A stretch of 18,950 nt of DNA from Candidatus Iainarchaeum sp. (lineage in GTDB: Archaea > Iainarchaeota > Iainarchaeia > JAGGVJ01). Numbering within the stretch: the stretch's first letter is position 1; each line of letters opens with the position of its first letter. Below are positions 1,623-18,950 of the stretch, piece after piece. The position numbers and the translations under genes are program-made. Below the pieces are notes generated by a model. The model saw nothing but the letters and a program-made list of their open reading frames with translations. It ran no database searches and was not told the DNA's origin. The stretch is taken from contig JAGGVJ010000043.1 of assembly GCA_021158055.1 (NCBI GenBank), positions 1 through 18,950 of the forward strand, given 5' to 3'.

Positions 1623-1800
1623 GTCAATTACTCCACCTTGTCGGGTGGGGCTTGTAACTAACTATATTGTTGTTACTTTTGGTTGATTGACGAACAACCT
1701 GCTGATCTCAGATATACCAAGATTAGCGATGTTTCGCGAAGCATTTAGATCAGCATGTAATTGAAAACCGCAACCACAACTATACCAACTGCCTTCTCTG
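1603..1800 (-). ncRNA. Predicted omegaRNA/reRNA (scaffold overlapping tnpB 3' end and right end; guide ~1603-1622). Its 5' boundary is approximate
   Basis: Known TnpB architecture applied to the mapped right end. Guide would be ATAACTATAGTGATATCTCT. The transcript itself is inferred. Confidence 0.65.
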
Positions 1801-2773
1801 TTTGTTTTTTTTATTGTGTTGCAATTGCTGCATTTTTGGCTTGTGTATCTTGGGTTTACTTTTACAATCTGTTTGCCTAATGCTTCTGCTTTGTAACTTA
1901 AAAACAATTCAAATTGATTGTAAGACCAATTGCCTAACATTCTGTTGAATCGCTTTCCATTACTTTTCTTTGTCATCCTGCTTAATCTTTCAAATGCAAA
2001 CACTTTAAAATCACTTTCTGCAATTGCTTTGCTTAACCTGTGATTTACATCAGTCACAAACCGTGTTTCTTTACCGCTGATTAATTTAAGTCTTTTTATA
2101 GCGGGTTTAGTGCCTTTGGACTGCAATACTCTTTTCAGGTATTGGTATTTGCCTTTGACTCTTTTCAAATCCTTTGAATTGAAAAACTGATTGTTTGAGC
2201 AGACCAAAATGTTGTTTATCCCCCTGTCTATTCCCAAAACATCTTTTGCTGTTGCCTGTTGAATTATCGGCTTTTCTTTTTCAACAACCACATTCAAAAA
2301 CAAATTATTGTTCCTGTAAATCAACATTCCTGCTTTTGGCTTCCAGTCAATGTATCTGTTCAGCTGTTTGTTTGTGCCAAAATTAAGTTTTATCCTGCCC
2401 CTGATTGTTGATATTGAAATGAATTTGTGTTCAAATGAAACCCTCAAACATCGCTTGTCATATCTCAAAGCAGACATTTGTTTTACTTTGATTTTTCTGC
2501 CTAACTTGTCTTTTTTTAATGCTTCTATTGCAACATCCCTTGATGTCTGAATCAAAGCAGATGGGAACTCAGGGTAAAGTTTTCTGATTTTTTTATAAGT
2601 TAAGTCATGCAATTCGTTTTTGTTATCTGTCTGGATGTTGAATCCAAAATCACAAATCAACTGCCTTATTTTTGAAGCGGCCTGCAAAGTGTTTTCCAAT
2701 CCCTTGCTTTTACTTAACCTTATTTGCACAGTTCTTTGCTTTTACTTAACCTTATTTGCACAGTTCTTTGCAT
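1662..2773 (-). CDS. tnpB: TnpB RNA-guided endonuclease; native ATG (2773) put out of frame by a 32-bp duplication, in-frame GTG at 2729 gives 355 aa
   Basis: RuvC-I GIDRG, RuvC-II FERL, zinc finger CSNC...CGC and RuvC-III HADLNASRNI all intact. Removing one duplicate copy restores MQRTVQIRLSKSKGLE. Confidence 0.95.
2704..2771. repeat. Perfect 32-bp tandem duplication at the tnpB 5' end
   Basis: ttgcttttacttaaccttatttgcacagttct at 2704-2735 and 2736-2767, followed by ttgc. Confidence 0.97.
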
Positions 2774-6887: not shown

Positions 6888-8375
6888 ATGGCAACAATAA
6901 TCGAATCTTACGGAAACATCGAAATACTAAAAGATAAAACCGAGGAAAACATTATTTACCAGGTCAACTTCCCCGACTTTACCCCGGATGAGCGAAACAT
7001 AATCAGAAGCGTCAAAATGCGGCTTGACTCCGAAACACTGGCAGAGCTAAACAGCATGATCGACGGCAGAAGAAAAAGGGAAATACTTGAGCAGTTCCTT
7101 GACTTTGAAAAAAAAGACATTAAAAACAAGGAATCTGTAATCTCATTCATCATAAACCAGTACTTTTCAAAATACGGCGTTCTCGAGGAACTCATAAACG
7201 ACGACAACCTTGAAGAAATAATGGTAAACGGAGTCAACCAGCCCGTATTTGTCTTTCACAAAAAATACGGGATGTGCAGGACGAATATACAAATACAAAA
7301 CGTGCAGACAATAAACAGGATAATTGACTTCATTTCAACCACGACAGGCAGGGAAATAACAAGCGAAAAGCCGTTAATGGACACCAACATCCCGGACGGC
7401 AGCAGGGTCAACGTCACCGTTCCGCCCGCGTCCCCGAACGGACCCTCGATTACCATAAGGAAATTCAAAAAAGTCCCCTACAACATAATAGAACTCATCA
7501 AGCTCGGCACCCTGAACACTGAACTCGCCGCACTGCTCTGGTGCTGCGTGGAAGGGCTGAGAATATGCCCTGTAAACATGATGATTGCAGGAGGGGCAGG
7601 CTCAGGCAAAACAACTTTGCTGAACGCGTTGTCATCATTCATTCCCCCGGAAGAACGCATCATAACCATTGAAGACACGCGCGAACTGAACCTTGACTGC
7701 CTTTCAAACTGGGTGCCCCTTGAATCAGTCCCGAAAGTGCTTGAAAACAGCGACGGGCTAAGCAGGCAAAGCCTGATTCAAAACGCGCTGCGCATGAGGC
7801 CAAACAGGGTGCTGGTCGGGGAAGTGAGGGGAATGGAAGCGGAATCCATGTTTGTCGCAATGAACATCGGGCTCAACGGGACAATGGGAACGATCCACGC
7901 AAACTGCTCAAGAGAAGCCATAACCCGGCTCACAACCCCCCCGATGGACGTGCCTGTAAAAATGATCCCGTTAATGAAGCTTTTAGTCGTGATAAACAAA
8001 ACCTACAACCAAAACAGGGAAATTGTCAGAAGAGTTACCCAGGTAAGTGAAATAACAGGGCTTGAAGGAGACGTGGTCCGCATGAACGAAATCATGTCAT
8101 GGAACAGGAACACCGACGAACTTGAAAAAACAGGGGACGCGTCAAGGCTCAAGGAATACATCGCAAGCTCCTGTGCAATAAGCGTAAACGAAGTCAACCG
8201 GCAGATAAGAGAACGCGACGAACTCCTGAAAAAAATGGTTGAAAACAACGTGACTGAAAGAAAACAAGTAGCGGAAATATTCAAAAAATACCGTCTTGAA
8301 TCCTCTTATGCAGCTTCCGGAAACAAAAGCAATGAAAAAGACAAAGACAGCAGCATAATCAAAGACCTGCGCTGA
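6888..8375 (+). CDS. CpaF/TadA/VirB11-family secretion or pilus-assembly ATPase
   Basis: LEEIMVNG, DGSRVN, SITIRKF, Walker A GGAGSGKT, Asp box TIEDTREL, LRMRPNRVLVGEVRG (Walker B), GTIHA. Confidence 0.95.
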   Translation: MATIIESYGNIEILKDKTEENIIYQVNFPDFTPDERNIIRSVKMRLDSETLAELNSMIDGRRKREILEQFLDFEKKDIKNKESVISFIINQYFSKYGVLEELINDDNLEEIMVNGVNQPVFVFHKKYGMCRTNIQIQNVQTINRIIDFISTTTGREITSEKPLMDTNIPDGSRVNVTVPPASPNGPSITIRKFKKVPYNIIELIKLGTLNTELAALLWCCVEGLRICPVNMMIAGGAGSGKTTLLNALSSFIPPEERIITIEDTRELNLDCLSNWVPLESVPKVLENSDGLSRQSLIQNALRMRPNRVLVGEVRGMEAESMFVAMNIGLNGTMGTIHANCSREAITRLTTPPMDVPVKMIPLMKLLVVINKTYNQNREIVRRVTQVSEITGLEGDVVRMNEIMSWNRNTDELEKTGDASRLKEYIASSCAISVNEVNRQIRERDELLKKMVENNVTERKQVAEIFKKYRLESSYAASGNKSNEKDKDSSIIKDLR

Positions 8376-11992: not shown

Positions 11993-12141
11993 CCATTACA
12001 ACAGTAACAAATGCATAGTTTTACACCCATTACAACAGTAACAAATGCATAGTTTTACACCCATTATAATAGTAACAAAAGTATAACTTTAGACCTATTA
12101 TAATAGTAACAAAAGTATAACTTTAGACCTATTATAATAGT
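11993..12141. repeat. 34-bp tandem repeat, 4.4 units in two variants (A-A-B-B)
   Basis: ccattacaacagtaacaaatgcatagttttacac x2 (11993-12060), c(c/t)attataatagtaacaaaagtataactttagac x2 (12061-12128), partial unit to 12141. Confidence 0.95.
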
Positions 12142-12176
12142 TCAATTTATATACTTTAATAATCATAAATATAAAC

Positions 12177-13634
12177 ATGAATGAAGAAAAGCTAGTTAAA
12201 CAACTAGATCATTTAAATGACTGGTGGAGTACCGCACAAGTACCAAAAAACAAACTAAAATCATTTGAACGAAGAGACTTATTTTTCATAAAAAGGGACA
12301 TCAGCAAACAAGAAATTTTAGCAATAATCGGTCCAAGACAAGTTGGAAAAACCACATTAATATATCAAACAATTCAATATCTGTTAACTGAAAAAAACAT
12401 CAATCCATCTAATATATTATTTATAAGTTCAGACAATGAGGTCCTAAAACTTAACTCAAATGATTTCCTTGAAGACATTCTAAACACTTACTTCAAATAC
12501 CGGCTAAAACAACCAATAGGACAATCAAGGGAAAAAATATACCTTTTCTTAGATGAAATACAATCCATGGATAACTGGAACTATAAACTAAAAAATTGGG
12601 TGGATCAAAAATTAAACATTAAAATTATTGTATCAGGATCTTCCTCAACACACATTCTAAAGGGTGGAAATGAATCCTTGGCAGGAAGAATGCAAACTCA
12701 ATTAATTTTACCACTAAAATTTCTGGAAGTAATCCAATACAAAACAAACAACGAAACAATTTGTGACATAAATGAAAATTTACGGGAAAAACTGAAAAAA
12801 TCAATTAAACTATCCAACCCAACCCACTTGTTCAACGAACTAAACTCAATAAACATGACACTAACAACCACAACTAAAGAACAGCTTCAAATTTATCTAA
12901 ATAATTACCTCTTAAAAGGCGGATACCCTAGTTTGCTTGATACTGATAACTACTATGATTTATCAAGATCACTGGATAACTACATTCAATCAACCATTTA
13001 TCGGGACATTGTCAGATTATATGAAATAAGGCGCCCAAAAACACTAAGTGCTTTAATTACATACATCGCACAATCAGGCGCACACGCAATAACATACACT
13101 AAACTATCAAATCACCTGAAAATCAGAAAAGAAACAATTGAATCATACTTAGAATATCTTGAAAACACATTTTTGATATCTGAATCAGACTTTTACTCAA
13201 CAAACCTGAAAGTAAAACAAAGAAACCCGAAAAAAATATACATCAGGGACCCGGGAATCAGAAACTCACTACTCCACCAAATAACAGATGATCTGCTAAA
13301 AGACCCTGCTGAACTTGGAATAATAGCCCAGACCATCTGCTACGACCACTTAAAAAGACTAAGTTTTTACCTCTTAAAATCAGAAAACCCAACCATAAGC
13401 TACTGGCACAACGGCAAAGAAATTGACTTAATACTTGAAGGAACAAAATGGAACATCCCAATAGAAGTTAAATACACAAACCAAAACAAAAAAGATGCAA
13501 TTAAAGAAATAAACAAATTCATAAATGAAAACAAAAACAAAGCACCCTTTGGAATCATCGTAACCAAAAACACACTCGACTTAAAAGACAATACCCTTCT
13601 AATCCCTCTTTGGCTATTCTTACTCATGTGCTAA
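12177..13634 (+). CDS. AAA+ ATPase, COG1373 type (AAA_14 + DUF4143)
   Basis: GPRQVGKTT, LDEIQ, SGSSS, ESLAGR, GGYP, PKKIYIRDPG, and C-terminal EIDLI...PIEVK nuclease-like motif. Confidence 0.93.
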   Translation: MNEEKLVKQLDHLNDWWSTAQVPKNKLKSFERRDLFFIKRDISKQEILAIIGPRQVGKTTLIYQTIQYLLTEKNINPSNILFISSDNEVLKLNSNDFLEDILNTYFKYRLKQPIGQSREKIYLFLDEIQSMDNWNYKLKNWVDQKLNIKIIVSGSSSTHILKGGNESLAGRMQTQLILPLKFLEVIQYKTNNETICDINENLREKLKKSIKLSNPTHLFNELNSINMTLTTTTKEQLQIYLNNYLLKGGYPSLLDTDNYYDLSRSLDNYIQSTIYRDIVRLYEIRRPKTLSALITYIAQSGAHAITYTKLSNHLKIRKETIESYLEYLENTFLISESDFYSTNLKVKQRNPKKIYIRDPGIRNSLLHQITDDLLKDPAELGIIAQTICYDHLKRLSFYLLKSENPTISYWHNGKEIDLILEGTKWNIPIEVKYTNQNKKDAIKEINKFINENKNKAPFGIIVTKNTLDLKDNTLLIPLWLFLLMC

Positions 13635-15073
13635 AACCAACCCTTCATTTGAAGCTGAATTACCTCTTCTTTTTTCATTTCATCATCTAATATTTTTGTT
13701 ATCTCCTTGAGATCCAATAACAACAAACCCGATACGTTCCTATCAATCAATTCCTGTTCAAACCCTGACTTAGAAATAATTATATACTCAAACTTACCAC
13801 TTGCAGATGTTTTTTGAGATTTTCTTTTCAGTTCTTCAAAACAACCGCTCCCCATTTTTTTTTCTTTAAACTTTGCTTCAAGAAAAACTGTTTTTGATTT
13901 ACTTTTTAACACTAAATCAATATCTTCATTTTTTTCCCACCATTTTCCGCATTCAATAAACTCAATTTTTTTATTTTTTATCTCTTTACCATTCATAAAA
14001 ATAAAAAATTCTCTAACAATGTCTTCAAATATCCTGCCGCAATAAGTACCAAATTCTTTATGTATTCTTTTTTGAATGGCATCAGAATTACCCATAGCCA
14101 CCTGTTCTCTGTAAGAATAAACAAACCGATACCAAAACCTGAAAAAATTATCTTTTATCCCATATCTTTTCATTCTTTTCTTCCCAAACAACGGGTCATT
14201 TACTTCTATAATATCTAAAAGTTCCGATAAATTTTTCAAATACGGGGAAATTTCATAATTTTCCAAACCAAGAGAATCAGCTATTTCTTTGGATTCAACT
14301 TTTCCTTTTGAAATTGCCTTTAATATAGAAATATATCTTTCAGGGTTTTTTAATTCAAATTTAAGGGCATTTATGGGTTCATCAAACAAAGACCCATTCT
14401 CAGACAAAGCAAGATAATTAAACGATTCAAACAAATCTTTATCTAAAAACTTAAAATCAGACAAATATTTTGGAGTGCCGCCAAAAACCGAAAATATCTT
14501 TATTTTTTCTTCTTCTGATTTTTCCTTAAACATTTCCCTCAAATCTATATATCTAAACTGTTTAAGATGATAAGAAAACGTTTTTCTCCCATAAAGAGGG
14601 CCTTTTTCTTCTAATGCTAATCTATGCATCATACTCATAGAAGAACCGCAAATAATAACCATGATTCTTTTGTCCTTCAAAGAATTATCCCAACTTTCCT
14701 GAAGATTAAAAATAAAATCCTTTGCAAAATAATTTACTCTTTGAAACTCATCAATTACTAAAAGAATCTTCTCATCAGCAGATTTTTGAGACACATAACT
14801 AAAAAAATCTTCCCATTTACTTATTTTAACTGATTCTTTAAAAGTCTCTTCTATCTTAATTGAAAGAGCATTCATAAAATCTCTTTTGTTATCATAAACA
14901 ACATTTATGTAAATCTTGTTTTCTTTCACCTTTCCAAAAAACTTACGAAGCAACTCAGACTTTCCCACCCTCCTTCTGCCATACAATACCCCAAACTCTC
15001 CTTTTTTCAAATTAATAAATTTACTTCTAAGGAATTCCAACTCTTGAACCCGATTATAAAACCGCTTTTCCAT
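13631..15073 (-). CDS. Archaeal ATPase, COG1672 type (ATPase_2 + wHTH + DUF234)
   Basis: FYNRVQEL, YGRRRVGKS, IDEFQ, CGSS, PLYGR, GGTPKY, DNFFRFWYRF, GKWW...DIDLV...EAK. Confidence 0.93.
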   Translation of the reverse strand: MEKRFYNRVQELEFLRSKFINLKKGEFGVLYGRRRVGKSELLRKFFGKVKENKIYINVVYDNKRDFMNALSIKIEETFKESVKISKWEDFFSYVSQKSADEKILLVIDEFQRVNYFAKDFIFNLQESWDNSLKDKRIMVIICGSSMSMMHRLALEEKGPLYGRKTFSYHLKQFRYIDLREMFKEKSEEEKIKIFSVFGGTPKYLSDFKFLDKDLFESFNYLALSENGSLFDEPINALKFELKNPERYISILKAISKGKVESKEIADSLGLENYEISPYLKNLSELLDIIEVNDPLFGKKRMKRYGIKDNFFRFWYRFVYSYREQVAMGNSDAIQKRIHKEFGTYCGRIFEDIVREFFIFMNGKEIKNKKIEFIECGKWWEKNEDIDLVLKSKSKTVFLEAKFKEKKMGSGCFEELKRKSQKTSASGKFEYIIISKSGFEQELIDRNVSGLLLLDLKEITKILDDEMKKEEVIQLQMKGWF

Positions 15074-15082
15074 ATATAATCA

Positions 15083-15104
15083 ACATTATATAGTTATATA
15101 ATGT
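15083..15104. promoter_or_regulatory. Perfect palindrome between TATA box and start of the COG1672 ATPase
   Basis: ACATTATATA-gt-TATATAATGT. Minus-strand TTTATATAA lies immediately upstream (~15108-15116) and the ATG is at 15073. Confidence 0.7.
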
Positions 15105-15142
15105 AAATTATATAAACATTTCGATACTACAAAAAAACCCAA

Positions 15143-15769
15143 TCACTCCCCCTTATAACCAACCGACTCCATAAACCCGACAAGATCCTTCCCGTGAACA
15201 TCAAAATCAAAAACCTTATTGACATTCTTGTTAAGCTGATCAATAAAATCAAAAAACCCTTCATCGCCCCAGACCTCAAGCTCAAGCAAACCACACATTT
15301 TACCCAGCTTCTCCTTTGCAGCAGAAATCTCAACCTCATTTTCAACAACAACTTCAAGCTCGAAATAAAACCCATAACCCGGAATCTCAACCAAAGCAAA
15401 AACAACACCGTCAAACTCAAAATTTTCCATGAACCTGAAAGCAGACATCCCCCTCTTATAACCCAAAGCAGCATACGCTTCAACAACATTCAAAAACCCA
15501 CCTTTCTCTGCCCGCACCAAAATCTCCTTTCTTTCATCACAAGCGCCCCAGCCACCCACCTTAATGACCATCTCAGGCACGCCGTCAGTAACCCTGGCGC
15601 GAACATCCGTCTTCCTCTCCCGAATACCCTCGCAAAACGTCGAATAATCAATCAAAAACCTACTCTTCCTGCCCAAAAACCTGCCCTTGTCAAGCAAAAA
15701 ACGCTTCAACTCAACATACTTCCTATCAGAAATCGGGCCCCGAAACTCCACTTCAAACACACGCAACAC
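15143..15769 (-). CDS. CYTH-domain protein (class IV adenylate cyclase / triphosphate tunnel metalloenzyme-like)
   Basis: N-terminal EVEFR (ExExK-like), RAR, K, ERKE and downstream G.YFELEV motifs. Confidence 0.85.
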   Translation of the reverse strand: MLRVFEVEFRGPISDRKYVELKRFLLDKGRFLGRKSRFLIDYSTFCEGIRERKTDVRARVTDGVPEMVIKVGGWGACDERKEILVRAEKGGFLNVVEAYAALGYKRGMSAFRFMENFEFDGVVFALVEIPGYGFYFELEVVVENEVEISAAKEKLGKMCGLLELEVWGDEGFFDFIDQLNKNVNKVFDFDVHGKDLVGFMESVGYKGE

Positions 15770-15912
15770 CTCAAAAAACCAACAAATCTAAAAAACCACC
15801 CTTACAACATTACAACAAAGGCAAAACAAAGTAATAAACCCTTTTAATTTTGCGCTTGGTTGCGATTATAAAGCTTTTAACCTCTAAAAAATAAGGGTTT
15901 TTTAAAAAATAT

Positions 15913-15949
15913 AGAAAAACTTTGTTTCTGAAAGAAATAAAGTATTTCC
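15913..15949 (+). repeat. 37-bp double palindrome, copy 1
   Basis: AGAAA-aactttg-TTTCT-gaa-AGAAA-taaagta-TTTCC then attaaagcatttt. Confidence 0.88.
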
Positions 15950-16142
15950 ATTAAAGCATTTTGTAAAAGCAAGTGCAACACCATTTTAAAGCTAAAAACC
16001 ACCACCCTGAAAGCCAAATAAAAACATATCTTTTTTGCAAAGGTTTTTAAATGTTAAATGCAGTATAGTAAATCCAAAGATTGTATCTTTTTTGCAAAAG
16101 ATTGATCCAACACAATAAAGCCACAAGAAAAGCAATTAGAAG

Positions 16143-16388
16143 GTGATGAAAATGAGCGATATAGAACTGGTTTTCAGGATATTTGGCATCGGTATTGTTC
16201 TTTTTTGCATTTCTTTCCTAGTGCTGGGAATCATGGTTTCATCAGCAATAAACGAAAAACTAACCAACACAATCAACTCACCGATTGATTCAATTATCAA
16301 CACCGCATTAATCACAGAAGAATTTTCAAATTTAAAAAACACACATAGCACAATAGAATTAGAAAAAGATTATTTCCAAAAGAAATAA
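16143..16388 (+). CDS. Small single-TM hypothetical protein (start possibly ATG 16152)
   Basis: AGGTGA SD and one hydrophobic helix. Stop codon lies inside repeat copy 2. Confidence 0.6.
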   Translation: MMKMSDIELVFRIFGIGIVLFCISFLVLGIMVSSAINEKLTNTINSPIDSIINTALITEEFSNLKNTHSTIELEKDYFQKK

Positions 16389-16397
16389 AGTTTTTCC
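16361..16397 (+). repeat. 37-bp double palindrome, copy 2
   Basis: AGAAA-aagatta-TTTCC-aaa-AGAAA-taaagtt-TTTCC then att. Confidence 0.88.
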
Positions 16398-16492
16398 ATT
16401 GAGAACCGGGCCAAAAAACAAGATCTCAAATAAGCTGCAATAAACTGAATTTGAAAGCACAGCAACTGGCTGCAAGGACCGTTCAAATAAAA

Positions 16493-16529
16493 AGAAATAA
16501 ACTATTTCTTATAGAAACAAAGTTTTTCC
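16493..16529 (+). repeat. 37-bp double palindrome, copy 3
   Basis: AGAAA-taaacta-TTTCT-tat-AGAAA-caaagtt-TTTCC. Confidence 0.88.
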
Positions 16530-16726
16530 CTAAAACAATCTTTTGTTTTAGTCAAAAAAATAACGATTGTCAGGTCAAAATTGTGGTTCTAATCAAACAC
16601 ATCAACAAATTTATCACAATTTCTGCAACAACTAAAGTACAAATCACACCATAACAGCCCCCGCTTTGACTATGCCTATTGTATTCTGCAGCTGACACAA
16701 CCTGCCGGATCGCCAGGCAGGCAAAA

Positions 16727-16763
16727 GGAAAAAGTGTGTTTCCTTAAGAAATAAAGTTTTTCC
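16727..16763 (+). repeat. 37-bp double palindrome, copy 4
   Basis: GGAAA-aagtgtg-TTTCC-tta-AGAAA-taaagtt-TTTCC then attaagcatttt. Confidence 0.88.
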
Positions 16764-17011
16764 ATTAAGCATTTTTTGACACCCCGCAACACCAAAATTA
16801 AACAAGAAAATTCAAAAATGCTTTAGTTTGCCTTATCTGAACCGAATAGGAGAGGGGTAATTGGATAAATTTGTGGTTTTTGAAGGGTTTTTTGTTGATC
16901 TTTTTTGAAGGGTTTTTTCGGAAATTTTTTGTGTTTCAATTTTTCCCTGGAATTTTGCTTTGTTTTTTGAAAATTTTCAGTATTTTTTCAGGCTCAAAAA
17001 ATAACCCTATT

Positions 17012-17262
17012 CATATCAAAGTCATATAACTACTATTTTACTATATCAGATTAATGTGTAGTATTTTTTGAGTTGTTTGCGGGAAAAATGTGCTTGTTAT
17101 ATCGAACTAATGTGATGAAAGTATTCTTTGCAGCGGAACCTTGCCTAAATGGGTTGGATAGAGTATTTTAGGGGGAAAATGGGTTAATTCTTATGTTTAC
17201 ATATCGGATTGATGTGAATGGGGTTTTTAGGGGGTTTTGGTGGAACATAGCGGATTGATATA
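17012..17262. repeat. Cluster of five 17-bp degenerate palindromes (about YATATC-N5-RATRTR)
   Basis: 17012 catatcaaagtcatata; 17042 tatatcagattaatgtg; 17098 tatatcgaactaatgtg; 17200 catatcggattgatgtg; 17246 catagcggattgatata. Confidence 0.7.
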
Positions 17263-17340
17263 ATTAGTTACAATCTTCATTTGTAAATCTGAAAAAATAA
17301 ACTAATTAGTATGTCAAACAAATTTAAAAAAATGATTTTT

Positions 17341-18585
17341 TTAATAATTTTTCGCCGGGGGTGTTGTTTTTCCTTCAACAAACAAACCATTTGGCAAAGT
17401 TAATTTAAAAGTGTGACTATTATAATAATCAGAAACTATATGAGAAACTATATGAGAATCTCTACATCTGCTTGTTTTTTTTGTAAAATCAAAAATTAAT
17501 TCTTCACTATTACCTGGATTAATAATATTACCCATAACTTCAAAACAAAGCCTTCCACCCAAATAAAATTTATAAAAACCAGACTTAATACTATCTTGAC
17601 TATTATTTCTTATTAAAATACTTATATAATCAACTTTCAGACTTGTATTAACCAATTTTGAGGAAGGATCCATAACAGCATTAGTATTTCCCACATCTAT
17701 TTTAATGGGCATAAAGGCCGGACAATCTGGTTTACAATTAAGTCTATTTTCTTCTAAATCACAAACACCATCACCACATTTATCAATACATAAGCATTTT
17801 AACTCACTGAATTTTTGATTTTCCTCACAATTTGGAACTGATACGGGATACTCTTTACAACAACCTTCAATATATTCCACATTACAAATATAATCATCTG
17901 TTTTATCACAAACATCTTTACTACATCTATTATTATCATTACAATCGCGATTAGATAGGCACATTATCTGTTTTTTTCCACCACAAACATCAGTTAAATC
18001 TTTGCTATAACCATCAATGTTTGACAACATAAACAACACAATTATTCTTACATCTAAATCTGCAAACTCACTAACTATATTTTGATAACTTCCTTGTAGC
18101 GACCGTTTAACCAGTTTAGATACAGAAAAATTACTTTTTAAAACCACATTGTCTAGTTGTTTTATGTTTTCAATAAAGCCATTTTTCTCTATAATTTCTT
18201 CTTTTTCAACATCAACCACTACTTTATAATCAAAAATATCCTTCCAACTAGTTCCACTGAATTTTACAAAATCATTCATTATGCCAAGTGGTTGAGACTG
18301 CCCAAAATACCCATTTTTATCAACAAGATCATATAACTTACCTTCAGAAACATCAAAATCATAATAAACAACATATGTGGAAACAGTTATCTTTTCAACT
18401 TTTTTATCCAAGTTTATTACAAAAATATTTGGGCAGTTTTTTTCAATTTCCTTGAAAGCAACTAAACTTTTAATTACTCCCAAGTCAGAATCAGCGATAT
18501 CAATTGCTTTTTGTGAGTTTTCATCATTTATACAACCAGCAAAAAAAATAAATAAAATGATTAACAAAGGAAGTATTTTTGACAT
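17341..18585 (-). CDS. Predicted lipoprotein / surface protein with Cys-rich repeats
   Basis: Signal peptide with lipobox-like FAGC, Cys-rich block (C....DC.D.N.C..D.C and CGDGVC...E...NC..DC), beta-rich C-terminus, AT-rich coding. Confidence 0.88.
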   Translation of the reverse strand: MSKILPLLIILFIFFAGCINDENSQKAIDIADSDLGVIKSLVAFKEIEKNCPNIFVINLDKKVEKITVSTYVVYYDFDVSEGKLYDLVDKNGYFGQSQPLGIMNDFVKFSGTSWKDIFDYKVVVDVEKEEIIEKNGFIENIKQLDNVVLKSNFSVSKLVKRSLQGSYQNIVSEFADLDVRIIVLFMLSNIDGYSKDLTDVCGGKKQIMCLSNRDCNDNNRCSKDVCDKTDDYICNVEYIEGCCKEYPVSVPNCEENQKFSELKCLCIDKCGDGVCDLEENRLNCKPDCPAFMPIKIDVGNTNAVMDPSSKLVNTSLKVDYISILIRNNSQDSIKSGFYKFYLGGRLCFEVMGNIINPGNSEELIFDFTKKTSRCRDSHIVSHIVSDYYNSHTFKLTLPNGLFVEGKTTPPAKNY

Positions 18586-18631
18586 GCAATACTATTACAT
18601 TAACACATTTAAAAATTTAGCTAAGCACAAT

Positions 18632-18668
18632 AGAAAAACTTTCTTTCCTAAAGAAAAATATTATTTCC
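18632..18668 (+). repeat. 37-bp double palindrome, copy 5
   Basis: AGAAA-aactttc-TTTCC-taa-AGAAA-aatatta-TTTCC then attaaa. 39/45 identical to 15911-15955 over 18630-18674. Confidence 0.88.
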
Positions 18669-18695
18669 ATTAAATAACTCAAACAATAAACAAAT

Positions 18696-18950
18696 TCATA
18701 TTTCAGGTAGAACATACTTTAAATAAATTTTTTCTTTTGCTTCATACTTCCCATCTTTAGTTCTAACCACAACTTCAACAAAACAGTCGTTTTCAATAAT
18801 TTTTTGTTTACTAATTGATGGCATTCTTAAGAGATATCTTTTTACCCCATTAGGTTTCAAAATAGTAATGTTTTTATCATAGTCTAAACTAAATCCCACC
18901 AATGAATTATCACCAGATTTTTTTTCTTTTTCAGAAACAATACTGTATTC
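18696..18950 (-). CDS. 3' end of a hypothetical protein entering from beyond the window
   Basis: Frame open from 18950 (EYSIVSEKEKKSGDNSLVGFSLDY...) to the stop at 18696. Confidence 0.75.
   Translation of the reverse strand, partial: EYSIVSEKEKKSGDNSLVGFSLDYDKNITILKPNGVKRYLLRMPSISKQKIIENDCFVEVVVRTKDGKYEAKEKIYLKYVLPEI

What the first reader, a model, noticed from the sequence alone, without database searches (positions are those of the whole stretch)
15913..18668. Five co-oriented 37-bp double palindromes punctuate an accessory region like cassette junctions
Seen: RGAAA-N7-TTTCY-N3-AGAAA-N7-TTTCC at 15913, 16361, 16493, 16727 and 18632. All ten half-units keep exact arms, a 7-bp variable core and a 20-bp period, and four of five are followed by ATT. 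They bracket an 81-aa ORF (stop inside copy 2), two short non-coding segments and the lipoprotein gene, and copy 5 follows the stop of the next gene. Known: inverted arms around a 6-8-bp core are the layout of tyrosine-recombinase sites, but this is not attC, dif or a CRISPR repeat. Inference: an undescribed site-specific cassette array for surface-protein genes. Alternatives are tandem operators, or mini-ORB-like boxes, since the central TTTCY-N3-AGAAA resembles the ORB core TTCC-N3-GGAA. No recombinase or cdc6 is in the window.
Basis: partly seen in the sequence, partly recalled or inferred. Interest (0 to 1): 0.82.

Follow-up and report, generated by a model that had tools for sequence, protein, structure and literature searches.

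The report
Paired regulator-binding sites, not cassettes
Five 37-base palindromic repeats in a tiny vent archaeon are most likely docking sites for a conserved but unstudied gene regulator that controls membrane and surface-protein genes, not the joints of a new gene-shuffling system.

Summary
All five 37-mers sit at the stated coordinates, against 0 expected in 200 shuffles. They are not unique to this region. Each is a 20-bp-spaced pair of a 17-bp dyad unit (consensus GGAAAAACTTTATTTCC). That unit also occurs as two more pairs on contig C33 and about 12 single copies elsewhere in this 1.15-Mb Iainarchaeia genome.

Arms-only pairs occur once each in 18 of 214 other class genomes, against 0 for the reversed control. 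Four of those 18 lie 5-35 nt upstream of one conserved gene for an uncharacterised winged-helix protein. Five of 30 single-unit hits lie upstream of the same gene. The protein is predicted to form a homodimer.

In this genome three pairs sit 46-57 nt upstream of leaderless membrane or secreted-protein genes, just upstream of the TATA box.

The window holds no recombinase. The pairs show no hairpin covariation. Contigs from two samples are colinear and show no junctions.

Best reading: tandem operators of that regulator, multiplied here by local duplication. The cassette-array idea is not supported. A REP-like or terminator role for the single units stays open.

The parts
15913..15949 (.). Pair D1: two 17-bp dyad units 20 bp apart, between the divergent 205-aa ORF (minus strand) and the 81-aa ORF (plus strand)
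   Evidence: Exact pattern match. It lies 152 nt from GTG 15760 and 196 nt from ATG 16146. About 45 bp of its right flank is shared with D4.
16361..16397 (.). Pair D2: overlaps the stop codon (16386-16388) of the 81-aa ORF
   Evidence: Its left flank 16322-16358 is 73% identical to the left flank of D5, including a TATA-like run on the minus strand (family D5).
16493..16529 (.). Pair D3: in non-coding DNA
   Evidence: It is the most divergent of the five copies (position-weight score 53.0 against 58.5-61.0).
16727..16763 (.). Pair D4: in non-coding DNA; right flank paralogous to that of D1
   Evidence: blastn aligns 16728-16775 with 15914-15962 at 85.7% over 49 nt.
18632..18668 (.). Pair D5: promoter-proximal. 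It lies 46 nt upstream of the ATG of the lipobox protein gene and 16 nt upstream of that gene's TATA-like box.
18608..18615 (-). TATA-like box (TTTTTAAA on the minus strand), 22 nt before ATG 18585. This is the geometry of a leaderless promoter.
   Evidence: Read. Genome-wide, TTTAA and TTTAT peak at -30..-26 from the ATG in 528 ORFs.
17341..18585 (-). 414-aa Cys-rich protein with an N-terminal hydrophobic segment and a lipobox-like ...FFAGC; likely target gene of D5
   Evidence: Translation; no Pfam family. The lipobox is read by eye and was not tested with a predictor.
16143..16388 (+). 81-aa ORF with one hydrophobic segment, preceded by GGTGA. Whether it codes is uncertain.
   Evidence: only a weak OAD_gamma hit, E 0.015. 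A promoter-like TTTTTAAAT lies at 16044-16052.
15143..15760 (-). 205-aa ORF of no known family, divergent from D1. A promoter-like AAAAGCTTTATAATC lies on the minus strand at 15864-15878.
   Evidence: 0 Pfam families at E up to 10. Two substitutions in one run's contig fall inside the promoter-like element.
18696..18950 (-). 3' end of a minus-strand ORF cut by the contig end; its stop codon lies 27 nt before D5
16389..17340 (.). About 950 bp of non-coding, low-GC DNA, polymorphic in the population. It holds D3, D4 and other short repeats.
   Evidence: Two alleles over 16855-17063, with 14 and 0 differences, in the contigs. No Rfam or tRNA hit. No paralogue remnant.

Best explanation
Each 37-mer is a tandem pair of a 17-bp dyad-symmetric unit, RGAAA-N7-TTTCY, with genome consensus GGAAAAACTTTATTTCC. 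I read the units as double-stranded-DNA binding sites for a dimeric winged-helix protein. One dimer would contact the two GAAA/TTTC arms, whose centres lie about 11 bp (one helical turn) apart. In a pair, two dimers would sit 20 bp apart on the same face of the helix.

The best candidate binder is a conserved 163-aa protein encoded on contig C8 (7507-7998). It belongs to no Pfam or NCBIfam family and is present in most Iainarchaeia.

In other genomes of the class the same unit or pair lies on the core promoter or start region of that protein's own gene, which implies autoregulation. In this genome three pairs (D5 in the window and two on C33) lie 46-57 nt upstream of leaderless start codons of membrane or secreted-protein genes. 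That places them just upstream of the TATA box, the position from which archaeal regulators usually activate.

The four pairs at 15.9-16.8 kb share flanks pairwise with each other and with D5. I infer they are locally duplicated promoter modules in a low-GC, strain-variable, largely non-coding stretch. That would also explain why all five point the same way.

Shown: the sites, their genome-wide and class-wide distribution, the association with the regulator gene, the fold and the predicted dimer.
Inferred: that this protein binds them, and whether binding activates or represses.
For: 1. The five matches are real and far above chance.

2. Unit family. The exact 17-mer occurs 8 times, with 4 more copies at one mismatch and 6 at two. 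The reversed sequence and two of three shuffles gave 0 hits at two mismatches or fewer; the third shuffle gave 1. Sixteen of the 19 sites lie outside crude gene calls that cover 88.8% of the genome; the other 3 sit inside a called ORF near its 3' end.

3. The constraint is on sequence, not on folding. The GAAA/TTTC arms never vary. In the long-hairpin model 74.1% of cells pair, against a shuffled mean of 79.1%, and 496 of 500 shuffles score at least as high.

4. The arms-only pair pattern occurs once in each of 18 of 214 other class genomes and 6 times in this genome. The reversed control gave 0 in all 215. The stricter pattern hits only 2 records among one genome for each of 185,579 species, and both are Candidatus Iainarchaeum MAGs.

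5. Four of those 18 pairs (families f7, f10, f22, f12) lie 5-35 nt upstream of the same conserved gene. Five of 30 single-unit hits in relatives lie 19-60 nt upstream of orthologues of that gene, and G038 has a unit 13 nt upstream of it.

6. In 29 orthologue loci that were not chosen by the motif:
   - GAAA-N7-TTTC with at most one mismatch occurs upstream in 11 of 29, against 23 of 153 control upstream regions.
   - TTTCY-N3-4-RGAAA occurs in 5 of 29, against 5 of 153.

7. The protein. It is present in 161 of 215 class genomes and in 52 of 58 high-quality ones. The AlphaFold2 model has pLDDT 89.1 and shows three helices, a beta wing and a long C-terminal helix. The named Foldseek hits are predominantly winged-helix DNA binders: PcaR, MepR, Fur, TubR, Sso10a and ORC winged-helix domains. 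The homodimer score is 0.90 against a best of three controls of 0.00. In calibration that mark was reached by 20 of 30 known homodimers and 1 of 23 monomers. The runs agree in at least 96% of contacts and pLDDT is at least 89. The interface uses residues 5-50 and 131-163 and leaves the winged helix free.

8. Geometry. The gap from pair to start codon is 46, 47 and 57 nt in this genome, and 68, 51 and 50 nt in G038, G004 and metagenome contig L016. A TATA-like box lies in between (the C33 value is corrected from 55 to 57 for coordinates 6924-6960). Leaderless promoters with TATA at -30..-26 are the norm here.

9. Archaeal TrmBL1 represses when bound downstream of the TATA box and activates when bound upstream of BRE/TATA (PMC4706686, passages read).

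10. Flank homologies between D1 and D4 and between D2 and D5 point to local duplication.
Against: - No binding experiment exists.
- The Foldseek E-values are weak (0.016-0.2). The PDB profile match to MecI/BlaI has E 0.14.
- This genome's own copy of the regulator gene has only a one-arm-mismatch unit, about 100-116 nt upstream of its ATG.
- D2, D3 and D4 stand before no credible gene.
- Four of the 12 single units lie between convergent genes, where no promoter is expected. Most of the others lie within 190 bp after a stop codon. That fits a terminator-like or REP-like role at least as well.
- Eight identical 17-mers with a shared TTAG...CTTT flank is unusually uniform for a regulon.
- Three of the 18 pairs in relatives lie inside long ORFs. 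Two more are in a family where the protein was not found, and those have GC-rich cores.
- The strict pattern used was tuned after two of the relatives' hits had been seen.
- Related genomes are not independent samples.
Confidence: 0.55

Rival explanations
1. REP-like dispersed palindromes that act at the RNA or termination level. The 17-bp unit would be a short extragenic palindrome that marks gene ends as a bidirectional terminator, roadblock or 3' stem-loop. The pairs would be REPIN-like doublets.
For: - Ten of the 12 single units have a gene 3' end within 190 bp, and 4 of 12 lie between convergent genes.
- Two sites overlap stop codons: C11:6179 and D2.
- Both strands of the unit carry T-runs (T5 on one strand, T3AT3 on the other). 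T-runs follow many of the genome's tRNA genes.
- This genome has 12 copies at one mismatch or fewer, against at most 3 in any of the 214 relatives. That looks like amplification.
- In relatives some pairs lie 9-18 nt after stop codons, at orthologous places in two genome pairs (L086/L087 and L090/L091).
Against: - No Y1 (RAYT/TnpA) transposase was found in the 94.9%-complete assembly.
- There is no covariation that keeps either hairpin.
- Convergent placement is not clearly enriched: 4 of 12 observed, against about 17% of intergenic length.
- The model does not explain why units and pairs sit upstream of one particular regulator gene in at least nine other genomes.
- It does not explain the constant 46-68 nt spacing to start codons.
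- No bacterial-type terminator was found (0 found, 2.1 expected from shuffles).
Confidence: 0.2
2. The units are promoter-like BRE/TATA modules bound by TBP and TFB themselves (symmetric BRE-TATA-BRE). The pairs would be face-to-face promoters for short or antisense RNAs.
For: - AAAAACTTTATTT resembles promoter-like strings read upstream of genes here, such as AAAAGCTTTATAATC before the 205-aa ORF and AAAAACCTTATTTTAG before C33:6866.
- In several relatives the centre of the unit lies 21-37 nt before the regulator's start codon, which is the expected TATA position.
Against: - CTTTA is not enriched at the TATA position: 3 counts in the -30..-26 bin, against 39 for TTTAA and 29 for TTTAT.
- D5 and both C33 pairs have a separate TATA-like box at the right distance from the start codon.
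- No consistent ORF or RNA follows the single units.
- Face-to-face promoters 20 bp apart have no obvious use.
Confidence: 0.07
3. A replication origin or a centromere-like (partition) array of an integrated or former extrachromosomal element. The clustered pairs at 15.9-16.8 kb would be ORB-like or iteron-like boxes.
For: - Four pairs fall within 850 bp of a 1.5-kb, mostly non-coding, low-GC stretch in an 89%-coding genome.
- The central TTTCY-N3-AGAAA resembles the mini-ORB dyad, a resemblance recalled from memory.
- The 20-bp period is iteron-like. An unrelated metagenome contig (L015) has a true 20-bp array of similar units.
- TubR is among the weak fold matches.
- One single unit lies 169 bp after the orc1/cdc6 gene on C43.
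Against: - Both orc1/cdc6 genes are on other contigs. The first has its own, different tandem repeats in its upstream intergenic region.
- The pairs are co-oriented rather than inverted around an unwinding element.
- The window has no Rep, ParA or integrase gene.
- Nothing similar was found in the plasmid or phage collections or in the viral contigs.
- The model does not explain the sites at promoters on C33 or in other genomes.
Confidence: 0.06
4. One reading: core sites of a site-specific recombination system that moves surface-protein gene cassettes.
For: - Inverted 5-bp arms flank a 7-bp core, and the five copies point the same way.
- The region is low in GC. Contig depth is lower over the lipoprotein gene and a neighbouring stretch is polymorphic.
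- Integrons and integrase-less attC clusters do exist in archaeal MAGs (PMC9668308, passages read).
Against: - No recombinase lies in the window or in C33:1-12000. The genome has one PF00589 hit, a 274-aa open frame on C21, with no unit nearby.
- There are no joints, and contigs from two runs are colinear across D1-D4 and D1-D3.
- Folding is not conserved, whereas attC sites are defined by structure.
- Two of the four intervals hold no gene.
- The same unit occurs singly at about 12 ordinary chromosomal places and at one regulator's promoter in other genomes.
Confidence: 0.04

Closest known systems
TrmBL1 and its TGM operator in Pyrococcus furiosus (PMC4706686, passages read)
   Same: A palindromic operator bound by a dimeric winged-helix regulator. 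Sites downstream of or on the TATA box repress, and sites upstream of BRE/TATA activate. Some sites lie in transcribed regions.
   Different: The motif differs (TATCAC-N5-GTGATA). TrmBL1 belongs to the TrmB family, whereas the candidate here matches no Pfam or NCBIfam model. No binding data exist here.
NrpR operators, GGAA-N6-TTCC, in methanogens (PMC2723118, passage read)
   Same: A GGAA/TTCC inverted half-site. Two operators are used at nif, as the title of that paper's cited reference says. One look-alike cluster in the protein atlas carries the NrpR-type winged-helix domain PF08461 in 15% of its members.
   Different: The spacing here is GGAA-N9-TTCC. No NrpR-domain (PF01995) gene was found in this genome. 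The target genes are unrelated to nitrogen.
Ptr2 upstream activating sites in Methanocaldococcus jannaschii (recalled; named only in the discussion of PMC4706686)
   Same: Two adjacent palindromic sites just upstream of the TATA box, each for one dimer, that recruit TBP.
   Different: Ptr2 is an Lrp-family protein. The detail of the resemblance rests on recall and was not checked in a paper.
BlaI/MecI repressors
   Same: Small dimeric winged-helix repressors that bind dyads in their own divergent promoter region. They are the best PDB sequence match of the family profile.
   Different: The match is weak (E 0.14-0.15). These are bacterial proteins with a different operator sequence.
Integron attC sites and attC clusters without an integrase (PMC9668308, passages read)
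   Same: Co-oriented imperfect palindromes between short ORFs in an accessory region.
   Different: attC sites are found by conserved single-strand folding and recombine through IntI. Here the sequence is conserved, not the fold. The elements are 37 bp long, no IntI is present, and the intervals are partly empty.
Bacterial REP/REPIN elements with RAYT transposases (recalled)
   Same: Short extragenic palindromes, dispersed, often at gene ends, and occurring as inverted doublets.
   Different: No Y1 transposase was found. There are only about 19 copies. The elements are linked to one regulator's promoter across a whole class.
Archaeal ORB/mini-ORB origin boxes (recalled)
   Same: The central TTCY-N3-RGAA dyad. 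Some single units are followed by a G-run.
   Different: The elements are not next to orc1/cdc6. They are co-oriented and dispersed. The cdc6-adjacent intergenic region has other repeats.

Membership tests
Transcription-factor operator (dimeric winged-helix type) | Dyad symmetry with half-sites about one helical turn apart | tested here: met
   The GAAA/TTTC arms are invariant in 7 of 7 pairs except for two cells, and their centres lie 11 bp apart. The units of a pair are 20 bp apart.
Transcription-factor operator (dimeric winged-helix type) | Sites in promoter regions at a consistent distance from core promoter elements | tested here: inconclusive
   Met for 6 pairs: 46-68 nt to the start codon with a TATA-like box in between. 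Not met for D2-D4, nor for the 4 single units between convergent genes.
Transcription-factor operator (dimeric winged-helix type) | The site recurs at the regulator's own gene across genomes (autoregulation) | tested here: met
   Four of 18 pairs and 5 of 30 single-unit hits in other class genomes lie directly upstream of the same winged-helix gene. The sites are enriched in 29 orthologue upstream regions not chosen by the motif, against 153 controls.
Transcription-factor operator (dimeric winged-helix type) | Direct, sequence-specific binding by the protein | not testable with these tools
   Only the fold and a predicted homodimer are available.
Integron attC / attC cluster without integrase | Conserved single-strand hairpin fold with variable sequence | tested here: not met
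   In the long-hairpin model 74.1% of cells pair, against 79.1% in shuffles. Only one pair of columns changes on both sides. The arms are invariant in sequence.
Integron attC / attC cluster without integrase | An integron integrase, or an array of ORFs each followed by a site | tested here: not met
   No PF00589 in the window and one in the genome, on C21. Only 2 of the 4 intervals contain an ORF.
Tyrosine-recombinase core site (dif/att type) | A cognate recombinase nearby and recombination products | tested here: not met
   No recombinase nearby. No joints in the contigs of 2 runs; contigs can miss rare forms.
Origin recognition boxes (ORB/mini-ORB) | Clustered next to orc1/cdc6, in inverted orientation around an AT-rich unwinding element | tested here: not met
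   The cdc6 genes are at C43:18244-19443 and C29:8922-10088, and different repeats lie upstream of the first. All five pairs are co-oriented.
CRISPR array | Regular repeat-spacer period | tested here: not met
   The spacings are 448, 132, 234 and 1905 bp.
REP/REPIN | Short extragenic palindromes, dispersed, with inverted doublets | tested here: met
   About 19 sites, 16 of them fully outside the crude gene calls; 7 are doublets.
REP/REPIN | A RAYT (Y1 transposase) in the genome | tested here: not met
   PF01797 gave 0 hits in an assembly that is 94.9% complete.
Intrinsic (bacterial-type) terminator | A GC-rich stem followed by a T-run | tested here: not met
   0 found in 15050-18950, against 2.1 expected from shuffles.

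The most novel reading that the evidence does not exclude
The auto-operator of a core, uncharacterised DPANN winged-helix protein has escaped its home promoter in this one lineage. It has multiplied into a dispersed family of about 19 near-identical intergenic palindromes, against at most 3 copies at one mismatch or fewer in any of the 214 relatives. This would be an archaeal REP/REPIN-like system without a RAYT transposase. Its copies would now punctuate gene ends as protein roadblocks or terminators, and as doublets would seed new promoters for membrane and surface-protein genes in a strain-variable island.
Probability: 0.15. Interest if true: 0.6.

Novelty: new member of a known kind. Interest (0 to 1): 0.4.

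Why it matters
Almost nothing is known about gene regulation in DPANN archaea, and none of the Iainarchaeia is in culture as a genetic system. This work gives a concrete, testable regulator-operator pair. The protein is small, nearly universal in the class and belongs to no family model. The site is a precise 17-bp dyad, and there is a candidate regulon of membrane and secreted proteins, the class of proteins through which such small cells are thought to deal with their surroundings. A gel-shift experiment with one recombinant protein and a 40-bp oligonucleotide would decide the matter. The finding also removes a tempting false lead, a new cassette-recombination system.

Tried and rejected
- CRISPR, tRNA or a known RNA family: 0 Rfam hits at gathering score and 0 tRNA genes in the window. 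The spacing is irregular.
- Genome-wide enrichment of GAAA-N7-TTTC as such: none. There were 270 strand-hits, against 268, 206, 236 and 278 for N6, N8, N5 and N9. The signal lies in the full unit, not in the arms alone.
- Joining contig C12 to C33 or C42 through the paralogous lipoprotein promoter and signal-peptide stretch: no overlap was found, so this is left open.
- Pseudogene remnants in 15950-17340: six-frame translations (stops read as X) against the genome gave nothing outside the region itself.
- Homology among the genes next to pairs: none.
- The 89-94-aa winged-helix gene at C33:14780-15064 as binder. A unit lies 28 nt after its stop, and its G004 orthologue is about 450 bp from a pair. 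Metagenome contig L016 has the pair without an ORF of this kind listed between it and its neighbours. The idea was dropped in favour of the C8 protein.
- NrpR as binder: no PF01995 hit.
- The 205-aa ORF looked CYTH-like to me from memory. Pfam gives nothing even at E up to 10, so I withdraw the name.
- tRNA upstream regions gave no usable promoter consensus.
- RNA evidence: no RNA holder was listed for the region, so expression, transcript starts and transcript ends could not be examined.
- Contig depth: about 10-12 left of 17000 and 3-6 over 17660-18643. The figure is per contig and cannot rank genes, so I treat it only as a hint of strain heterogeneity.
- Parts without contig cover (17266-17659 and beyond 18643) say nothing.
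- Plasmid, phage and viral collections: no match.
- Literature. Searches for DPANN with transcription factor, binding motif and palindromic (listing only) and for Iainarchaeota with promoter (listing only) turned up no description of this motif or protein. That covers only these two searches of the held library.
Data S1 and S3 of PMC9668308, which list the MAGs with attC clusters, could not be checked for Iainarchaeia.

Full report
**Observation.** All five are on the + strand, and 200 dinucleotide-preserving shuffles gave a mean of 0.00 matches. The sequence and ORF list confirm the stated details:
- ATT follows four of the five copies.
- The stop of ORF 16143-16388 lies inside copy 2.
- Copy 5 lies 27 nt after the stop of the minus-strand ORF 18696-18950 and 46 nt before the ATG of the 414-aa protein.
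- That protein starts with a hydrophobic segment ending in a lipobox-like FFAGC (read by eye).

**Anatomy.** Aligning the seven pairs found in the genome shows that each 37-mer is an inverted repeat of a 17-bp unit with a 3-bp spacer. The unit itself has GAAA/TTTC arms around a 7-bp core, and that core prefers WACTTTR or its complement. In C33:1048 the second unit is direct rather than inverted.

I counted pairs for two folds:
- For the two small hairpins the arms are invariant, so they carry no information.
- For one long hairpin only 74.1% of cells pair, below the shuffled mean of 79.1%. Of 500 shuffles, 496 do at least as well, and one pair of columns changes on both sides.

The constraint is therefore on the sequence of the arms, not on folding. 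This speaks for recognition of duplex DNA by a protein. It speaks against attC-like single-strand sites or a structured RNA.

**The genome.** The window is the whole of contig C12. The assembly has 45 contigs, 1,147,527 bp and 94.9% completeness. Its only relatives in the collection are 'same class'. The two public records that share the strict pattern are titled Candidatus Iainarchaeum archaeon, so this is a DPANN archaeon of the Iainarchaeia. The only runs holding the region are hydrothermal-vent metagenomes from one study. From about 12 kb onward the window drops to GC 0.27-0.40, against 0.41-0.45 for the large contigs.

**Census.** A position-weight scan finds two more pairs on contig C33: 1048-1084, and 6924-6960 on the minus strand with two arm mismatches.

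The decisive step was listing all 38 RGAAA-N7-TTTCY sites. Outside the pairs, many are the same 17-mer.
- The exact string GGAAAAACTTTATTTCC occurs 8 times. Four more copies have one mismatch and six have two.
- The reversed string and two of three shuffles gave 0 hits at two mismatches or fewer; the third shuffle gave one.
- The single copies share a short flank (A-run, N4, ATTAG, unit, CTTT) but nothing beyond about 30 bp, so they are not parts of a longer mobile element.
- Against crude gene calls (1094 genes, 88.8% coding), 16 of 19 sites are fully intergenic. The other three sit inside a called ORF near its 3' end.
- Ten of the 12 single units have a gene 3' end within 190 bp, and four lie between convergent genes.

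**What is not there.**
- Pfam scans of 20 window ORFs and 10 ORFs of C33:1-12000 show no recombinase, Rep, ParA or cdc6. They do show a TnpB-like ORF at 1662-2729, archaeal ATPases, a secretion ATPase and SerRS.
- The genome has one PF00589 hit (C21, a 274-aa open frame), and none of the 38 RGAAA-N7-TTTCY sites lies on that contig.
- It has no Y1 transposase.
- The two orc1/cdc6 genes are at C43:18244-19443 and C29:8922-10088. The 450-bp region upstream of the first has its own three tandem 22-bp repeats. One single unit lies 169 bp beyond that gene's stop.

**Strain comparison.** Contigs of two runs were laid on 12000-18950.
- One contig of X1 spans 14314-16884 with 2 differences, so it crosses D1-D4.
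- One contig of X2 spans 14467-16636 with none, so it crosses D1-D3.
- No joints were reported.
- Three of the four loose ends at or beside copies (16514, 16777, 18653) match the flanks of other copies of the unit: C15:11574, an imperfect C11:6179-like copy, and C23:18582. The fourth, at 18615, matches the C33 paralogue of the lipoprotein promoter (compare).
- The stretch 16855-17063 exists as two alleles, and depth per contig is lower over the lipoprotein gene.
- Contigs cannot show rare rearrangements, so this is absence of evidence, not proof.

**Other genomes.** Three patterns were scanned.

| Pattern | Hits in other genomes | Control or note |
|---|---|---|
| Arms only, GAAA-N7-TTTC-N5-GAAA-N7-TTTC | once in each of 18 of 214 other class genomes; 6 in this genome | reversed pattern 0 in all 215 |
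| Stricter pattern, tuned partly on two of these hits | 2 of 214 class genomes | controls 0 |
| Same stricter pattern | 2 records in the species collection, both Ca. Iainarchaeum | - |
| Same stricter pattern | 0 viral contigs | - |
| Same stricter pattern | 3 metagenome contigs | see below |
| 17-mer at one mismatch or fewer | 33 hits in 29 of 214 other genomes; 12 in this genome | 16 control hits |

Of the three metagenome contigs, L016 is syntenic with G004 and has the pair in a divergent promoter region. L015 is an unrelated iteron-like array. The L017 hit lies inside an ORF.

**The link to one gene.** I read the contexts of these hits.
- Five of 30 single-unit hits (L025, L033, L034, L042, L045) lie 19-60 nt upstream of orthologues of one gene, of about 157-198 aa. 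G038 has a unit 13 nt upstream of it.
- Four of the 18 pairs, from G051, G086, G091 and G173 in four different families, lie 5-35 nt upstream of the same gene. Usually this is in the divergent region it shares with a conserved ~120-aa neighbour.
- With roughly a thousand genes per genome, that coincidence is not credible by chance (my inference).
- In 29 orthologue loci chosen by protein similarity alone, GAAA-N7-TTTC with at most one mismatch is upstream in 11 of 29, against 23 of 153 control upstream regions. TTTCY-N3-4-RGAAA is upstream in 5 of 29, against 5 of 153. Related genomes inflate such contrasts.
- The remaining pairs in relatives are mixed: three inside long ORFs; two in a family without the protein and with GC-rich cores; several 9-18 nt after stop codons; some upstream of membrane-protein genes.

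**The protein.** The orthologue in this genome is at C8:7507-7998 (163 aa).
- It is found in 161 of 215 class genomes, and in 52 of 58 high-quality ones, as a single match in every genome but one.
- It has no Pfam or NCBIfam family. It has at least 497 database relatives, named hypothetical or 'predicted transcriptional regulator'.
- AlphaFold2 with a 25-sequence alignment gives pLDDT 89.1 and pTM 0.77. The model has a helical N-terminal part, a helix-turn-helix with a beta wing, and a 32-residue C-terminal helix.
- The named Foldseek hits are predominantly winged-helix DNA binders, but the E-values are only 0.016-0.2. The PDB profile search gives MecI/BlaI at E 0.14.
- A two-copy prediction scores 0.90, against 0.00 for the best of three controls. 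In calibration that mark was reached by 20 of 30 known homodimers and 1 of 23 monomers. The runs agree in at least 96% of contacts and pLDDT is at least 89. The interface uses residues 5-50 and 131-163 and leaves the winged helix free. This supports a dimer but does not show one.

**Geometry at likely target genes.** The gap from the near edge of the pair to the start codon is:

| Locus | Gene | Gap (nt) |
|---|---|---|
| D5 | lipobox protein | 46 |
| C33:1048 | 243-aa Cys-rich membrane protein | 47 |
| C33:6924 | 103-aa membrane protein | 57 (after correcting my coordinates by 2) |
| G038 | - | 68 |
| G004 | - | 51 |
| L016 | - | 50 |

A TATA-like box lies 22-26 nt before each start codon. 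In 528 ATG-start ORFs of this genome, TTTAA and TTTAT peak at -30..-26 and GGTGA at -15..-6. Leaderless promoters of this geometry are therefore normal here, and the unit's own CTTTA core is not the usual TATA.

At these genes the pair therefore sits just upstream of BRE/TATA. At the regulator's own gene it sits on the core promoter or start. For TrmBL1 of Pyrococcus these two positions give activation and repression respectively (PMC4706686, passages read). All the genes next to promoter-proximal pairs encode proteins with an N-terminal hydrophobic segment (read by eye). They are not homologous to each other.

**The cluster in the window.** D1 and D4 share about 45 bp of right flank. D2 and D5 share about 37 bp of left flank, including a TATA-like run. 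I infer that the cluster grew by local duplication of promoter modules. That would also account for the common orientation. Orientation relative to the target gene is not constant between D5 and C33:6924. D2-D4 precede no credible gene and no paralogue remnant was found, so their present function is unexplained. They could be relics, a binding-site sink, or control elements for non-coding RNAs.

**Rivals.** The strongest rival is a REP-like or terminator-like role, above all for the single units at gene ends. It fails to explain the link to one regulator gene and the promoter geometry, and there is no RAYT transposase. It could still be true alongside protein binding, as a roadblock. Promoter-like, origin/partition and recombination readings are weaker, for the reasons given under each.

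**Novelty and limits.** I found no description of the motif or the protein in two literature searches (listings only). The kind of thing, an operator for a dimeric winged-helix regulator, is well known. The family and its site are new. Everything about binding and about the direction of regulation is inference.

Noticed in passing
window 1662-2729 (-): A 355-aa TnpB-like ORF (Pfam OrfB_IS605 and Cas12f1-like TNB domain). No Y1 TnpA was found anywhere in the assembly, and no dyad unit lies near it.
   Followed up: partly
window 15073-15114: A 42-bp AT-only palindrome: two 20-nt arms, 90% complementary, 2 nt apart. It lies between the start of the archaeal-ATPase gene (13631-15073, minus strand) and the end of the 205-aa ORF. 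Possibly a shared promoter or terminator element.
   Followed up: no
window about 17040-17270: Four irregularly spaced copies of a ~16-bp motif (ATATCRGAWTRATGTG-like), read by eye. They lie inside the stretch that is polymorphic in the metagenome.
   Followed up: no
window 16855-17265 and 17660-18643: Two alleles in the contigs over 16855-17063, with 14 and 0 differences. Per-contig depth is lower over the lipoprotein gene (3-6, against 10-12 further left) in both runs. This hints that the right end of the contig varies between strains.
   Followed up: partly
window 15870 and 15874: Two substitutions in the X1 contig fall inside the promoter-like AAAAGCTTTATAATC of the 205-aa ORF.
   Followed up: no
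G000 C43:19444-19890: A likely chromosomal origin region upstream of orc1/cdc6: three tandem 22-bp GT-rich repeats followed by AT-rich DNA.
   Followed up: no
G000 C8:8048-8410 and its orthologues (e.g. L084:1640-2002, L088:1006-1389): A conserved ~120-aa protein, with weak Ig-like Pfam hits, is the constant neighbour of the winged-helix gene. It is often divergent from that gene, with the operator in between.
   Followed up: partly
L015 (Ga0070685_10222452) 790-970: An unrelated contig of GC 0.495 carries an iteron-like array of AGAAAAA-N3-TTTTTCT units, mostly at a 20-bp period.
   Followed up: no
G000 contig ends (e.g. C9/C21, C10/C19, C16/C39, C28/C30, C23/C36): Many contigs begin or end in tandem repeats of about 20-24 bp, and pairs of contigs share the same repeat. 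The assembly seems to break at such arrays.
   Followed up: no
G000 C13:16578-16680: Downstream of the single unit at C13:16561 lies a stretch that ends in a GC-rich hairpin plus T5. It could be a small RNA gene.
   Followed up: no
G000 C33:195-240 and C42:182-236: Paralogues of the lipoprotein gene's promoter and signal-peptide region sit near two contig starts. This suggests a small family of such genes at assembly breaks.
   Followed up: no
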